Shown one piece after another: positions 5,911 to 54,727 of a DNA stretch of 64,000 nucleotides. Location: assembly GCF_009914755.1 (NCBI RefSeq), contig NC_060930.1. One strand, written 5' to 3'. This stretch comes from the human T2T-CHM13v2.0 reference genome, Homo sapiens. The notes beneath the pieces were generated by a model that saw nothing but the letters and a program-made list of their open reading frames with translations, did not search any database and had not been told where the DNA came from. Each line of letters opens with the position of its first letter. Position 1 is the first letter of the stretch. Both the position numbers and the translations under genes were made by a program.

Positions 5911-8811
5911 AACTATTTTTCTGAAAGTCTTAATATGAACGTGTGTTGAATTTTGTCAAATGCTTTTTCTGTATCAATTGATATGCTTATGTGATATTTT
6001 TGGCCGTAGTCTGTATTTGATATTCATATAGTCATTCCCTTTTTTTGTTTAATGTTGACATGGTATATTTGTTTCCATCCTTTTACTTTAACCTACTGAT
6101 ATCATTATATTCAAAATGAGTTTCTTGTATATAGCACACAATTTTTTTAAGATTCACTCTGCCAGTGTGTTTTAATTGGTGTACTTAAACCATTTACATT
6201 TAATGTAATTATTATGTTAGGGCTTCAATCTGCCACTATTTTTTTGTTTTGTTTTTTGTTTGTTCTGCTTTTGTTTCTCTGTTCTTTATTCCTGCCTTCT
6301 GATAGGTTACATTAATATTTTCTTAGAATTATATTTTTGTTTACCTATGCAGTTTTTATGTATTTTTTTGCATAGGTTTTAGTGGCTGCTCTAGGTATGA
6401 CATTACATGTCCAAATCTTATAGTCCACTGATATAGTCATTTCACCAATTTGAGTGAAATATAGAAAGCTAAACTCCCTTTATGTCCCTTTACTTGCCTC
6501 TATTTATAATTGCCTTAATTTCTCCCTACATACATTCAGAATCACGTTAGACATTGTTCTAATTGTTTTTCAACTATCAATTCAGAAATTTCAAGGAAAA
6601 AAGTATCTATTGTATTTACCCATATTTTTTATTATTGTGTTCTTCTTTCCATCCCAATGTTTGAAAGTTCCTTCTTTTATCATTTCCTTTCCGTTTAGAG
6701 TACATCCTTTAGCCATTGTTTTAGGGTAGGTTTGCTATCTAATTTGCTTAGTTATCTTTCATTTAAAAATGACTTGGTTTCCCTTTCATTCCTAAATATT
6801 TTTTTCCTCCCTAAATATAGAATCCTGGGCTAACCTTTCTTTTCTTTCAGCGCTTGAAGAAAGTGCCACTTCCTTCTGGTACCACCTTGTTACTTCTAGG
6901 TAGAGATAGAAATCTAGGTTCCAAAGTCTACCTCTGTTGACACCTAAAGGAAGGAGTGGTTCCTTATTACTGTTGGCCAGAGCGGGAGTTCTGGCTTGCC
7001 ACCAGACTTCCACTGGCTGAGAGAGGTAATAGTGCCTTGTTACTATTCCCCACTTTGCTTCTACTAGTAGCACTAGAAGAAGAGTAGACGCTTTATACTT
7101 GGCAGTGGTAAAAGTCCTGTCCACTAGAATCCCTTGAACACCACCCCAGTGAGGAGAAGACGGGATACTTTATTACTTCCGGTGGGAAGAAGTGCAGATT
7201 CCCTGCATGGTCTCTACTGAAACGAGTGTGGAACAGGTAGGCTCATTATTTCTGTGCAAAGTTGATAGTCTAGGTTCCCTACTTGGCCTCCTCTAACACT
7301 ACATCAGCAGATAAATTAGGTTGCCTCATTGCCTCATTACAGCATGATGAGGGTAGAGATCTAGGCTCCCCTTTCAGTCTTTGCTGGAATGGGTGTGCTG
7401 GGGGACACAAATATTTTGTGTTATGAATTACAGTGGTTATTGTTGAAAAATTTTTATCATGCTAGGCTACTACTTTCCTGGTCCTTTGGTAAAAGAGAGC
7501 AGGCTTTTATTGGGGCTTTTGTTTTTATTTTTAGGTGGGGGAATCTATGCTTGTCGCCATTTCCAGGTTATCTGCTTGTTCATTTTCAAGTCTTAGGTAT
7601 AGGAAGCAAAATTTACTACCTTGTTATTTCTTAGGTTTAAAGTCCTTAGAGAGTCTGTTCTCTTCATCTTTTAGAGTTTTCTATATTACATATAATGTCA
7701 AGGAACTTTATTTTATCTAGCAGGAGGAATAGGGAAAAGTATGTTCACTCTATCTTCCCAGAACAGGAACTCAAGCCAATTTTTGTAACAACATTACCAT
7801 TAGAACACAAAAAACATCCAAAGGTAATTTTACGATATTTTGATTTTTTCAAAGTAACTTTTTCCAAATGGTTTCAAAAATGACAAAATGATTTGCTTAA
7901 AAAGGAATATTAGTTCAATATACTGCACTTGATTTATATCACTGTTGAACCTCTCAATCTGTAATAGTCTTCTTTATATTTTCATATCTTGGATTTATTA
8001 AAGACACTTATTCTGAAAAATTTTTATATGATTTGTGATGTCATTAAATATGTTTCTCTGCTCCTTTTTTCTTGCAAATTGATACTTAGATCTAGAGGTA
8101 TCTGCGGGGATATTTCTTTCTAGAGTCTTTGAGGCAAGCATCAATTTCCCCACCCATTTCAGCTCTTAATTGTTGCATTCCTCGGCCTGTACCTCTTATT
8201 TCAAAAAGTGTCACTTCAAACTGTGCTTTCATGATCACATCATTTTTTCAACAGTCTGACCATCCTGAGTACCTTATATACATACTATTATTTAACTTTT
8301 GACTTCATCATTCAATCTTATTTCTAAAAAAATTTAATAGTTACTGCTAATCCTTAAATTGTAGCTACTCAATATATATGTTGCCAGCTCATTTTCTTTT
8401 ATATTCCACAGAAAGAGTAAAAGGAAATAATGTCTCTAAATTCATGCTCATAACTGCCGTCTGTGGCCTCATAACTGCTGTCTGTTGCCTCTGAATTCAT
8501 GCTCATAACTGCTGCCTCTGACTTGAAATTTAGTTACTCTGGATATTAAAATTTAACTCACATTATTTCCTTAAGATACATGTTATAATCTGTCAAAAAT
8601 AATTTTTTTTATTATACTATAAGTTTTAGGGTACATGTGCACAACATGCAGGTTACATATGTATACATGTGCCATGTGGGTGTGCTGCACCCATTAACTC
8701 GTCATTTAACATTAGGTATATCTCCTAATGCTATCCCTCCCTCCTCCCCTCACCCCACAACAGGACCCAGTGTGTGATGTTCCCCTTCATGTGTCCATGT
8801 GTTCTCATTGT

Positions 8812-12612
<3,801 letters not shown>

Positions 12613-12639
12613 TATAATGTTAACTGGTTATTTTGCTCA

Positions 12640-13691
12640 TTAGTTGATGCAGTTTCTTCCTAGCCTCTGTGGTCTGTACAGTTTGGCATGATTTTGCAGT
12701 GGCTGGTACTGGTTGTTCCTTTCCATGTTTAGTGCTTCCTTCAGGAGATCTTGTAGGGCAGGCCTGGTGGTGACAAAATCTCTCAGCATTTGCTTGTCTG
12801 TAAAGGATTTTATTTCTCCTTCAATTATGAAGTTTAGCTTGGCTGGATATGAAATTCTGGGTTGAAAATTCTTTTCTTTAAGAATGTTGAATATTGGCCC
12901 CCACTCTCTTCCGGCTTGTGGAGTTTCTGCTGAGAGACCAGCTGTTAGTCTGATGGGCTTCCCTTTGTGGGTAACCTGACCTTTCTCTCTGGCTGCCCTT
13001 AACATTTTTTCCTTCATTTCAACTTTGGTGAATCTGACAATTATGTGTCTTGGAGTTGCTCTTCTTGAGGAGTATCTTTGTGGGGTTCTCTGTATTTCCT
13101 GAATTTGAATGTTGGCCCGTCTTGCTAGATTGGGGAAATTCTCCTGGATAATATCCTGCAGAGTGTTTTCCAATTTGGTTCCATTCTCCCCATCACTTTC
13201 AGGTACACCAATCAGACGTAGATTTGGTCTTTTCACATAGTTCCATATTTCTTGGAGGCTTTGTTCATTTCTTTTTATTCTTTTTTCTCTAAACTTCTCT
13301 TCTCACTTCATTTCATTCATTTGATCTTCCATCACTGATACCCTTTCTTCCAGTTGATCAAATCAGCTACTGAGGCTTCTGCATTCATCACCTAGTTCTT
13401 GTGCCTTGGTTTTCAGCTCCATCAGGTCCTTTAAGGACTTCTCTGCATTAGTTACTCTAGTTAGCCATTTGTCTAATTTTTTTCAAGGTTTTTAACTTCT
13501 TTGCCATGGGTTCGAACTTCCTCCTTTAGCTCGGAGTAGTTTGATCATCTGAAGCCTTCTTCTCTTAACTCATCAAAGTCATTCTCCTTCCAGCCTTGTT
13601 CCATTGCTGGTGCAGAGCTGCATTCCTTTGGAGGGGGAGAGGCGCTCTGATTTTTAGAGTTTCCAGTTTTTCTGCTCTGTTTTTTCCCCAT
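12640..13691 (-). pseudogene. L1 ORF1 (RNA-binding chaperone), disrupted
   Basis: ATG at 13691. An in-frame TGA (ATG AAG TGA, ~13303) interrupts the coiled coil. The RRM/CTD half is open as 12640-13236 (KRPNLRLIGVPE…YPAKL). The normal TAA is mutated, so this frame reads through to 12640. Confidence 0.93.
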
Positions 13692-14266
13692 CTTTGTGGT
13701 TTTATCTACCTTTGGTCTTTGATGATGGTGATATACAGACGGGGTTTTGGTGTGGATGTCCTTTCTGTTTGTTAGTTTTCCTTCTAACAGTCAGGACCCT
13801 CAACTGCAGGTCTGTTGGAGTTTGCTGGAGGTCCACTCCAGACCGTGTTTGCCTGGGTTATCAGCAGCGGAGGCTGCAGAACAGCGAATATTGGTGAGCA
13901 GCAAATGTTGCTGCCTGATCCTTCCTCTGGAAGTTTTGTCTCAGAGGAGTCCCTGGCCATGTGAGGTGTCAGTCTGCCCCTACTAGAGGGTACCTCCCAG
14001 TTAAGCTACTTGGGGGTCAGGGACCCACTTGAGAAGGCAGTCTGTCTGTTCTCAGATTTCCAGCTGCGTGCTGGGGAACCACTCTTCTCTTCAAAACTGT
14101 CAGACAGGGACATTTAAGTCTGCAGAGGATTCTGTTGCCTTTTGTTTGTCTATGCCCTGCCCCCAGAGGTGGAGTCTACAGAGGCAGGCAGGCCTCCTTG
14201 AGCTGTGGTGGGCTTCACCCAGTTCGAGCTTCCCAGCCACTTTGTTTACCTACTCAAGCCTTGGCA

Positions 14267-41800: not shown

Positions 41801-43329
41801 AAGGGACATGTATTATTTATAATTAGATTCAGCTTCAAGGTGACTAATATTAAAAAATAGTAGCTTAAACCAGGTAGAAGTTCATTTTTCTCTCATGTAA
41901 AAAAGGCCAGAGATGAAGAATTTAGTATTACTTTGGGGAATCCATATAATTGTCAGAGACTGGAGGTCCTTTATTTATGTCCCCTAGGACACAGATCTTG
42001 TCTGCATGGTCTGATATGTCTGCTTGAGTCCCAATTAACACACTTCCATTCCAAGAAACAAATGGAAAAAGGAGAAGGAAATGAAACTTTTAAAAACAAT
42101 TTTATTAAGGTATAAATTTCACGTGATAAAATGCACCTATTGTTTTTAGGTCAGTGAATTTTGACATATGTATATATTTGTGTTATGAAACCAAAATCAA
42201 GATTTAGAACATTTCCATCATTCCCAAAAGTTTTCTCATGTCTCAATCACTTTACTCTCTCAGATCTAAACAAATACTGATCTGTTTTCTATTGGTGTAG
42301 ATTAGTATTGCCTTTTTGAAATTTCACACAAATGGAATCACACAGTATCTAATCTTTTGTGTCTGGTTTCTTTCTTACATAATGTTTTTGAGATTTATCA
42401 GTGATTTTGTGTGTCTTGGTAGAGTGTCCCTCTTTATTGCTGCATAGCATTTATGAGTTGTACCACATAAAATTCCCAGTAATTTTTCTTTGCCTAGTCT
42501 TGTGACTTATCACCCTATACATGTGAAGTTTAGTATTCAACCAAGTATTCAAGGAGATCACCTGTATAGATTTCTAAGTCCTTTTTATACATATCTCACT
42601 TCTCTCCTGAATTATGCCCGACAAATTCCAGATGTCCAGCAATCTCTATTTCTTCAGCTCAGTGACATAGCTGGTCTCTAAATTTTCCCATCTTCTCCAA
42701 TATCTAGAATATTTTAACCAATATCTAGATATATTCACCAATATCTAGAAATATTCAGATAGAACACTGGGGCCACTATTGGGGTTTGCCTCATTTGCTT
42801 TCCCTCTCTTTGGGGGTCATAATTATTTTGTAAAATGTCCAAAAAGAGGCACATATTTAACTGTTTTATAGTTGTTTTTATGGGGTGAGCTAGTCTGTTT
42901 TGAGTTATTCCATATTGACTAGAAGCGAAGAGAAAGACCCTTGATATTTAAGTAGACTTTCCAAAAGTTCCACTCAGTATGTCTGCTTACATCTAATTGG
43001 TCAGAACTTAAATTCATGACTACACTTACTTACAAAAGAGAATTGGATGTATAGTAATATATGTACTTGATAATGTAATCAGCTGCAATAGAGTTCTACT
43101 ATAAAAGAAGTAGAAAGAGTGGAAATTGGAGGGCAACCAGTAGTTGTATAAAAATTATATGATTTTTCTCTTTGATTTAGATCAAATATACAAGAATATT
43201 TCCAGGAAAAAAAAAAGGATAAACCGTTTGGGAAAATGGAGAGACAAAAACCACATCAGAGGCAATAAAAATTGTGATGCACAAATAAAAGAAAGCCCAA
43301 TTGCTCTGGCAATTAAGAAAATTAAAATT

Positions 43330-45707
<2,378 letters not shown>

Positions 45708-45722
45708 AAGAAAATTTAAATT

Positions 45723-46090
45723 AAAACCACAACAATATGAGGAAAATCATTAAAAAGGATAGCAATAAAATGTTGGAAAGAATATAAAGCAATGTAAATT
45801 AACTGAGAGTTGAAGTTTAAATTAGTACAATTACTTTAAAATGCAATTTATATATGTCTAGTATAAATGGAAATACATGTAATATCTATTCTAGCCACTC
45901 CATTTCTAGGCATTCACCTTAAAGAAACTCTTCCACAGGAATACAAGGAAATTTATATGAGGATGTTAAGCAATACTCTTTGTAATAGCAAAAAAATAAA
46001 AAAGTGAGCTCAAAATGTATAAATAAAATGTAAATAACAATTTTATGTCATTCAAGGGAACACTTCATAGCAGTGGAAATGAGCTAAAAG
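45723..46090 (+). mobile_element. Old L1ME-like fragment that hosts the inverted L1PA (continues from ~43200-43329)
   Basis: Removing the young L1 restores 'aattaagaaaattaaaattaaaaccacaa', and 'ctagccactccatttctaggcatt' follows. Confidence 0.6.
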
Positions 46091-52912: not shown

Positions 52913-53113
<201 letters not shown>

Positions 53114-53448
53114 TAATTTAGAAGAAATATGATAAAATAATTATGTACATTATTAGAACAGTTGCTTACCAAATTCATGTCTGGCTCAAATATGAGGAGG
53201 AGAGCTAGAATGTCAGTGTTAGGATACTCACAGTTCCTGCCGGATTGTAACAATGGGATTCCTTATAAAGATGGAGCCCATCAGGATTGTGTTGCTCCCC
53301 TGATCTAGGTTCTATATGAAACCATGCAAATAAGGAATTGGAAAACACCATTTACTTATAAGTTGTATTAACAGTAAATTCAATGCCAGGGAATTGTGTA
53401 TCGCACTGGCTAAAGCCAGAACTATGCTTCTTAAAAATCTGCCTCCCA

Positions 53449-53639
53449 CTCGGAGGTTACAGTGAGCCGAGATCGGGCCACTGCACTCCAGCCTGGGCGA
53501 CAGAGTGAGACTCCATCTCAAAAAAAAAAAAAAAAAGTAAAGTACACACAGGTATCTTATGATAGATGTAGATGGAAATTAAGTCTGCTATATTCAGCAA
53601 TTGAAGAAAGCCTGTCACAACTCAAGACTATTAGAAAAA
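53449..53639 (+). mobile_element. Severely 5'-truncated Alu + A tail + 98-bp non-Alu sequence + short A run, bounded by one TSD
   Basis: TSD aaaaatctgcctccca at 53433-53448 and 53640-53655. Alu 3' end 53451-53519, A tail to 53536, extra sequence 53537-53634. Confidence 0.9.
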
Positions 53640-54727
53640 AAAAATCTGCCTCCCATTGCTTAAACACAATACTCTTTTCATTATGGCACTCTGGGCTCTT
53701 CATATTTTGACTCCACTTACCTTTATAGCCTCATTGTCTTCCATATATCACCAGCCATCCTAAGTTAACAAAACCACTCTCCAGTCCCAGAATAGGTTGG
53801 GCCTTTTCATTGTATTTCTATTCCATTTGCTAGTACCTCAGGTAAAATATATTTTTTCTCTTCTCTATTTTAAAATATTTATCAAGGCCAAACACAAAAG
53901 CTAGCTCTCTCCGCTGTGATTAATGCATGTTATTTGTGCCTATCATTTGTATCATTCTGCTTTTTAAAAATAATTTGTAATTTACAAACTCTTATTTTCC
54001 TTCCTTCAATGCCTCATATAGAACTTACCACTTTTCAGACTGTGATAACATTTGTTGCACATAACCAAATGTTTTCCAGAACAAAGTAATGATTGCACTC
54101 TGGTAAGATCAGCTCATACCTGTGTATCCTTTGGGGTAGCATATTTTAAACCAAAGGTTGACATGAAACTCTTTTCCAAAGTAGGTAACCCAGAATGATC
54201 CACGGACTCAGAAATATGTTGAAGGAGGTTGAAAGTTGGTAGGCTGAAAATACAGAGACAGAATAATTTCTCTTGTTCTATCTAGTTTCCAGAGAGCTGA
54301 GAAATAATCAATGAATCACAATTTCAAGGTGGCAAAGACAAAGAAGGGTATTCTAAAATAGTGTCTAATAATGAAAGGCGCATGCAGCTACAGGTAGTTT
54401 TGGTGTATATTGAAATACCTTAGTGAGAATGATTAGTTTTAGAAGACATTTTTGAGAGAGTGTGGGAGAGGTGACTACAGATTGCTCAAAGATTTTTTGA
54501 AAGATGTTGCATTACATCCTGCATGGCAAAACTTCAATACCATTCTTTCCTCAAATGCTCAAGCATAATGTTTGGTTTCAAGCGTCATCAACAGCAGTAT
54601 CTAAACCCTTAGAACCTTGACTTCAGGCACTCCACCTTCATAGTCTCAAAGTTCACTTTAAACACTTTATATGCTTCATTGACTATATTATAAAACATTA
54701 TGTTATTCAATTTGTACTAGCTCATAA

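What the first reader, a model, noticed from the sequence alone, without database searches (positions are those of the whole stretch)
53433..53655. Candidate Alu-mediated 3' transduction
Seen: a perfect 16-bp TSD (aaaaatctgcctccca, at a canonical TT/AAAA L1-endonuclease site) encloses the last ~70 nt of an Alu, its A tail, 98 bp of non-Alu sequence (53537-53634) and a second short A run. The 98 bp contain no AATAAA/ATTAAA and no TTTT. Established: Alu Pol III transcripts read into flanking DNA until a T run, and 3' transduction is common for L1/SVA but rarely documented for Alu. Inference: a read-through Alu RNA was primed at a downstream A run, so the tag should identify the source Alu. The alternative is a truncated retrocopy of a Pol II RNA containing an Alu.
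Basis: partly seen in the sequence, partly recalled or inferred. Interest (0 to 1): 0.75.

Follow-up and report, generated by a model that had tools for sequence, protein, structure and literature searches.

The report
Alu copy carrying parent's flanking DNA
A short insertion on human chromosome 6 holds the end of an Alu repeat plus 98 bases found at only one other place, just behind an old Alu 500 kb away, so it is likely a rare case of an Alu read-through RNA being copied back into the genome together with its neighbouring DNA, and unusually close to its parent.

Summary
The predicted source exists. The tag has one other copy in the genome (92 of 106 columns identical), at chr6:81,765,988-81,766,086, 499.5 kb upstream on the same strand. 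There it begins 21 nt behind the tail of a nearly full-length AluS, and the first T4 lies about 90 nt beyond it. That copy has no enclosing duplication, so it is the parent. The parent has only AAA at the priming point. 17 nt between tail and tag are skipped, A run to A run. The parent Alu lacks its first 11-13 nt. The Alu piece shares only two common CpG decays with the parent, so the link rests on the tag. Retrotransposition of RNA from that locus is likely (about 0.85). Pol III read-through (about 0.5) and a Pol II RNA with a passenger Alu (about 0.33) cannot be separated here. A survey of 118,489 AluY confirmed no Alu transduction; a preprint list of 386 calls could not be read. The 500-kb distance (chance about 3e-4, post hoc) hints at local nuclear capture.

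The parts
53431..53432 (+). TT of the TT/AAAA L1-endonuclease-type site
   Evidence: sequence; consensus 5'-TTTT/AA-3' on the bottom strand in Wagstaff 2012 passages
53433..53448 (+). left target-site duplication, 16 bp
53449..53450 (+). two bases that match neither the Alu majority nor the parent; likely untemplated at the 5' junction
   Evidence: alignment
53451..53519 (+). last 69 nt of an AluS-type element; 1 of 55 non-CpG columns and 3 of 14 CpG columns differ from the majority of 72 Alus; 59 of 69 columns match the parent Alu (chr6:81,765,671-81,765,940)
53520..53536 (+). A17; stands where the parent has an (AATA)n tail, 17 further nt and AAAA, so 17 nt are skipped between two A runs
53537..53634 (+). 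98-bp transduced tag; the only other copy is chr6:81,765,988-81,766,086 (+), L002:1497-1595
53604..53609 (+). AAGAAA, a weak poly(A)-signal-like hexamer at -31, also present in the parent
   Evidence: 22% of sampled window positions have one of 13 listed hexamers at -40..-10
53635..53639 (+). five A outside the duplication; with the duplication's five A the run is 10, while the parent has only AAA here
53640..53655 (+). right target-site duplication, 16 bp

Best explanation
This is a 5'-truncated insertion of Alu 3' end plus 98 bp of unique DNA, and it was likely made by L1 ORF2p from a likely Pol III read-through RNA of the AluS at chr6:81,765,671-81,765,940, 499.5 kb upstream. Shown: the duplication and cut site; one other copy of the tag, behind a same-strand AluS; no enclosing duplication there; no terminator before the tag end and a T4 about 90 nt after it. 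Inferred steps: (1) soon after it inserted, the parent Alu was transcribed from its A and B boxes into its flank; (2) ORF2p nicked TT/AAAA at the new site and began on an oligo(A) end, either by slipping on the RNA's AAA, on a trimmed and adenylated 3' end, or by switching from another RNA's poly(A); (3) it copied the tag, skipped 17 nt from AAAA to the Alu tail (or these were deleted later), and stopped 69 nt into the Alu; (4) the short distance suggests the RNA was caught in the nucleus near where it was made.
For: The tag has exactly 2 copies by BLAST with either copy as query and by two patterns with up to 3 mismatches (2 exact plus one 3-mismatch hit on C2; 2 hits). A sense Alu tail within 30 nt upstream of a random point has a chance of 0.1-0.6%. 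Both Alus are of the same non-Y, AluS-like type (subfamily label recalled). The parent's B box matches GWTCGAGAC, the Alu B box in Conti 2015. Its A box differs from TGGCTCACGCC at the first base and at one CpG; the right copy of its 7-8 bp duplication reads AAATGTG, so the T was plausibly present at birth (inference). The terminator lies downstream of the tag, which is Halabian's criterion b. Timing fits: the tag copies differ by 13 of 105 (11 of 103 without one CpG pair), about twice the parent Alu's 12 of 226 from the panel majority, so the copy arose when the parent was young. No canonical poly(A) signal lies 10-30 nt before the end, and no same-strand L1 was detected in 30 kb upstream. 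ORF2p slippage on A runs and internal priming are described.
Against: The Alu piece is no closer to the parent than to other Alus: the parent scores 85.5%, tied at ranks 29-42 of 73, and the only shared derived states are two CpG decays also found together in 15 of 72 panel Alus. The parent lacks its first 11-13 nt, and Alus with less 7SL-like structure retrotranspose less well. Only AAA lies at the priming point while an A tail lies about 120 nt upstream; the site matches the target at 7 of 12 bases, best of 9 AAA sites but not best of 208 positions. AAGAAA at -31 would serve a Pol II RNA. The copy looks somewhat younger than the tag divergence implies (2 changes in 89 site-copies; P 0.08-0.41). 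No transcription data are available. Halabian 2024 confirmed no case among 118,489 full-length AluY.
Confidence: 0.5

Rival explanations
1. A Pol II RNA (unannotated lncRNA, downstream-of-gene read-through, or a transcript fired from the 5' end of the neighbouring citrate synthase retrocopy) ran over the Alu and flank. It was cleaved or primed at the tag end and retrotransposed with heavy 5' truncation; the Alu is a passenger.
For: AAGAAA at -31 in both copies. Extra A bases with no genomic A run. Intergenic polyadenylated fragments are known L1 substrates (class 1 TSIPs). Transketolase_C exons lie on the + strand at 81.41 and 81.48 Mb, 284 kb upstream (BCKDHB by recalled position). The parent's truncated 5' end is no obstacle here. 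Chromatin-bound Pol II RNA would explain the short distance.
Against: No AATAAA 10-20 nt before the end, which class 1 TSIPs typically have. The AATAAA copies in the parent's tail are 126-146 nt away. Variant hexamers occur at 22% of positions by chance. The adjacent sense Alu is then a coincidence of about 1%. The timing right after the Alu's birth is not required by this model.
Confidence: 0.33
2. A template-switch chimera. ORF2p copied the tag from a nearby RNA or single-stranded DNA and jumped at AAAA to the tail of an unrelated AluS RNA, so the Alu piece is not from the parent Alu.
For: No private mutation is shared with the parent. The 17-nt gap sits exactly at the tag/Alu joint. Template switching and templated insertions under 250 bp are described. 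The donor is on the same chromosome.
Against: With a DNA donor the adjacent same-strand Alu of the same type is a 0.1-0.6% coincidence. The templated insertions described lie within 15 bp of the site, not 500 kb away. With an RNA donor this collapses into the two models above.
Confidence: 0.1
3. The copy came through a lost carrier: an intermediate daughter Alu that already held the tag, or an upstream L1 (orphan 3' transduction) since deleted.
For: The perfect duplication, clean A17 and 4 intact CpGs look younger than 12% divergence. Orphan transductions are known.
Against: No third copy of the tag. No sense L1 in 30 kb upstream; the only L1 piece found in the 40 kb lies about 4 kb downstream on the other strand (library limited to the window and 30 loci). 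The age tension is not significant. A distant intermediate would make the 500-kb spacing pure chance.
Confidence: 0.07

Closest known systems
Alu 3' transductions: the monomer case of Kojima 2011 (known only through Halabian 2024), AluSx3-WaluSat and 386 Alu 3' calls in Hoyt 2021 (10.1101/2021.07.12.451456)
   Same: Alu plus flanking DNA inside one duplication, traceable to a parent locus; truncated and old elements included in Hoyt's calls.
   Different: Here the tag is unique non-repetitive DNA, the parent is 500 kb away, 17 nt are skipped and only AAA lies at the priming point. Whether this event is among the 386 could not be checked (Table S13 closed).
Strict AluY transduction class of Halabian 2024 (10.1101/2024.04.29.591526), with no confirmed member
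   Same: Gap over 70 nt, concordant strand, source Alu upstream, T4 downstream of the tag.
   Different: AluS-type, 5'-truncated copy and parent, 87% rather than 90% or more identity. It lies outside their search, and they say AluS/AluJ and Pol II cases are not excluded.
L1/SVA 3' and orphan transductions
   Same: TPRT hallmarks, 5' truncation, a tag that identifies the source.
   Different: Those are Pol II RNAs ended at a downstream poly(A) signal and are mostly interchromosomal. No L1 or SVA carrier was seen.
Class 1 templated sequence insertion polymorphisms (PMC5110952)
   Same: Duplication, TTTT/A site, added A, intergenic donor.
   Different: No AATAAA 10-20 nt upstream; the donor is near rather than distant; ancient by divergence.
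Tailless retropseudogenes (PMC5322556)
   Same: 3' end set inside the RNA at a short A-rich spot.
   Different: This copy has five A beyond the duplication and is 5'-truncated.

Membership tests
L1-mediated TPRT insertion | Target-site duplication of 8-30 bp | tested here: met
   16 of 16 identical
L1-mediated TPRT insertion | TT/AAAA cut site and 3' A run | tested here: met
   53431-53437; A10 at 53635-53644
L1-mediated TPRT insertion | Empty site with one copy of the duplication in an outgroup | not testable with these tools
   No relatives held; flanks are single-copy, so no paralogous empty site
Alu 3' transduction (Halabian 2024 criteria) | More than 70 nt between Alu end and terminal poly(A), free of Alu/L1/SVA | tested here: met
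   98-bp tag, two copies genome-wide
Alu 3' transduction (Halabian 2024 criteria) | Source Alu upstream of the tag in the same orientation | tested here: met
   L002:1180-1449, tag from 1497
Alu 3' transduction (Halabian 2024 criteria) | T4 or longer downstream of the tag at the source, none before | tested here: met
   First T4 at L002:1685
Alu 3' transduction (Halabian 2024 criteria) | Parent and offspring flanks not duplicated | tested here: met
   20 kb around the parent matches the window only in Alus and the tag
Alu 3' transduction (Halabian 2024 criteria) | Full-length AluY as source and offspring | tested here: not met
   AluS type; parent lacks 11-13 nt; copy is 69 nt
Alu 3' transduction (Halabian 2024 criteria) | At least 90% identity of tag to source | tested here: not met
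   92 of 106 columns; fits the age
Alu 3' transduction (Halabian 2024 criteria) | Same subfamily for source and offspring | tested here: inconclusive
   Both non-Y, AluS-like; 69 nt and no repeat library do not allow a finer call
Pol III-driven Alu transduction | RNA made by Pol III from the Alu's own promoter | not testable with these tools
   B box intact, A box with 2 changes; no transcription data
Class 1 TSIP / Pol II retrocopy | AATAAA 10-30 nt before the added A | tested here: not met
   Only AAGAAA at -31
Class 1 TSIP / Pol II retrocopy | Donor is a Pol II 3' end or transcribed region | not testable with these tools
   The annotation supplied covers the window and 100 kb, not the parent locus
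Orphan L1 3' transduction | Sense L1 upstream of the donor | tested here: not met
   None detected in 30 kb with a limited library

The most novel reading that the evidence does not exclude
A genuine Pol III Alu 3' transduction with a traceable parent and a unique tag, made by a local route: a young, 5'-truncated AluS that folds poorly for the usual ribosome route had its read-through RNA captured by ORF2p in the nucleus and inserted 500 kb away. This would define a class of short-range AluS transductions that AluY-only, full-length-only surveys miss and that marks real source Alus.
Probability: 0.35. Interest if true: 0.78.

Novelty: new variant of a known kind. Interest (0 to 1): 0.57.

Why it matters
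Alu source elements can rarely be named because copies carry no tag, and the one systematic test found no confirmed transduction. This pair gives a named parent, a daughter and an approximate date. It shows where to look: old subfamilies, truncated copies and lower identity. The 500-kb spacing makes a testable point: if such events cluster near their parents, some L1-driven insertions use RNA caught near its site of synthesis. No function is claimed for either locus.

Tried and rejected
Segmental or tandem duplication: rejected, since 20 kb around the parent shares only Alus and the tag with the window. Reverse direction: rejected, since the parent's left flank has no match over 6 nt in the 130 nt after the tag. 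Tag as a repeat family member: two copies only; Rfam finds only Alu-related hits in both loci. Tag as a mutated A tail, the usual false positive: rejected, it is complex sequence with a separate homologue. A paralogous empty site: none. A hairpin explaining the 17-nt skip: only -3.5 kcal/mol, not persuasive. Fold of the parent's first 50 nt (-13.0 versus -17.7 +/- 3.2 in the 56 of 72 panel Alus starting with GG): within range, not decisive. Primer-RNA complementarity: 7 of 12, not best of 208. Shared mutations in the Alu piece: uninformative. Papers on local retrotransposition: two searches gave nothing relevant in their listings. The published version of Hoyt et al. was not held. Earlier scan findings were not available.

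Full report
Observation. The lack of TTTT is weak evidence, as 68% of shuffles and 38% of window 98-mers also lack it. Both flanks are single-copy.

The source. A genome search with the tag gave 2 matches from 2 candidates: itself and chr6:81,765,992-81,766,086 (+), E 2.9e-23. The reciprocal search with 331 nt of that locus returned only these two places, and the match ends at the tag end. Two patterns with up to 3 mismatches agreed: 2 exact hits plus one 3-mismatch hit on C2, and 2 hits. The tool warns that it scores only the best candidates, so a more decayed third copy is not excluded. The distance is 499,548 bp on the same strand.

The parent locus reads as follows: a citrate synthase retrocopy on the minus strand; then, head to head, an Alu (L002:1180-1449); an (AATA)n tail; 17 nt; AAAA; the tag (1497-1595); AAA; and the first T4 at 1685. 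The tag region matches at 92 of 106 columns. Twenty kb around the parent shares only Alus and the tag with the window, and no duplication encloses Alu plus tag there. So the direction is parent to window. A sense Alu tail this close to a random point has a chance of 0.1-0.6%, so the copy most likely derives from an RNA that held both.

The Alu piece. I compared both Alus with a majority of 72 near-full Alus from 29 loci and the window; the panel was selected for likeness to the parent. Both are non-Y, AluS-like (label recalled, no repeat library). The parent lacks the first 11-13 nt and differs at 12 of 226 non-CpG columns. The copy differs at 1 of 55. The two share only two CpG decays, found together in 15 of 72 panel Alus, and the parent is tied at ranks 29-42 of 73 for identity to the copy. 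The Alu piece therefore cannot be assigned to the parent by its own sequence. This is expected if the copy was made before the parent mutated, but it leaves a template switch open.

Timing. The tags differ at 13 of 105 (95% interval 7-20%), about twice the parent's 5.3%, so the event followed the parent's insertion closely. By recalled primate rates that is roughly 25-45 million years ago. The perfect duplication (P 0.12-0.37) and the few changes in the copy (P 0.08-0.41) are mild tension, not a contradiction.

Which polymerase. For Pol III: the B box matches the Alu consensus in Conti 2015 (passages); the A box has two changes, one a CpG decay and one that may postdate insertion, because the right copy of the parent's short duplication ends in GTG; no canonical or T3NT/TNT3 terminator precedes the tag end. 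Against: only AAA lies at the 3' end, and the truncated 5' end should weaken the 7SL-like fold that aids mobilisation (review passages). For Pol II: AAGAAA at -31 in both copies, though 22% of positions have such a hexamer, and a + strand gene with Transketolase_C exons 284 kb upstream (BCKDHB recalled). Class 1 TSIPs usually have AATAAA 10-20 nt upstream (passages), absent here. No sense L1 was detected in 30 kb upstream. I put Pol III at 0.5, Pol II at 0.33, a chimera at 0.1 and a lost carrier at 0.07.

Mechanism. Shown: cut site, duplication, parent, skip and extra A. Inferred: ORF2p began on oligo(A) by slippage (Wagstaff 2012 passages), by internal priming (PMC5322556 passages), on an adenylated trimmed end, or by switching from another poly(A). 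It then copied the tag, jumped between A runs or lost 17 nt later, and truncated. Landing within 499.5 kb has a chance of 3.2e-4 genome-wide (post hoc, one event), and L1/SVA transductions are mostly interchromosomal (passages). This favours capture of the RNA near where it was made. A purely DNA-level copy would not explain the cut site, duplication and added A together.

Literature. Halabian 2024 (whole held text read, tables as images and supplements not seen) confirmed none among 118,489 full-length AluY, cites one monomer case by Kojima (not seen by me) and does not exclude AluS/AluJ or Pol II cases. Hoyt 2021 (passages) lists 386 high-confidence Alu 3' transductions including truncated elements; its Table S13 is closed and may hold this event, and the published version was not held. 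Passages of PMC12350158, PMC7058536, PMC13174262, PMC3412727 and 10.1101/2024.08.27.596794 gave no short-range Alu case. Searches were seen as listings; none names this locus in what I saw, which does not prove it is unpublished.

Verdict. A real retrotransposed copy of an Alu end plus flank with an identified parent. It works like an Alu 3' transduction but fails the strict AluY definition on subfamily, length and identity. The polymerase is unresolved. Interest 0.57.

Noticed in passing
L003:6780-9660 (chr6:81,762,780-81,765,660, - strand): Processed citrate synthase pseudogene (PF00285; 80-94% identical to pieces of a multi-exon gene on C12, with sister copies on C19, C3 and C2). It sits head to head with the parent Alu; its 9-bp duplication and the Alu's short duplication abut at one TTT/AAAA site, so one site was hit twice from opposite strands.
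   Followed up: partly
window 52915-53101: A right-arm-only Alu on the - strand, 420 nt from the insertion, forms an inverted pair with it (89 nt, 89% complementary).
   Followed up: no
window 53645-53653 region and L002:1599-1607: The end of the right duplication plus flank resembles the parent's sequence just after the tag (7 of 9 bases, visible); possibly extra primer-template pairing, possibly chance.
   Followed up: no
window 8589-13847 and 43308-45737: Two long masked stretches give L1 ORF1/ORF2-like peptides, mostly on the - strand (identification recalled, not scanned).
   Followed up: no
window 8439-8457 and 8494-8512: Exact 19-bp direct repeat 55 nt apart just before the long L1-like stretch.
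   Followed up: no
L042:8132-8151 (chr6:81,754,132): An isolated A20 run with no Alu or L1 end recognised before it.
   Followed up: no
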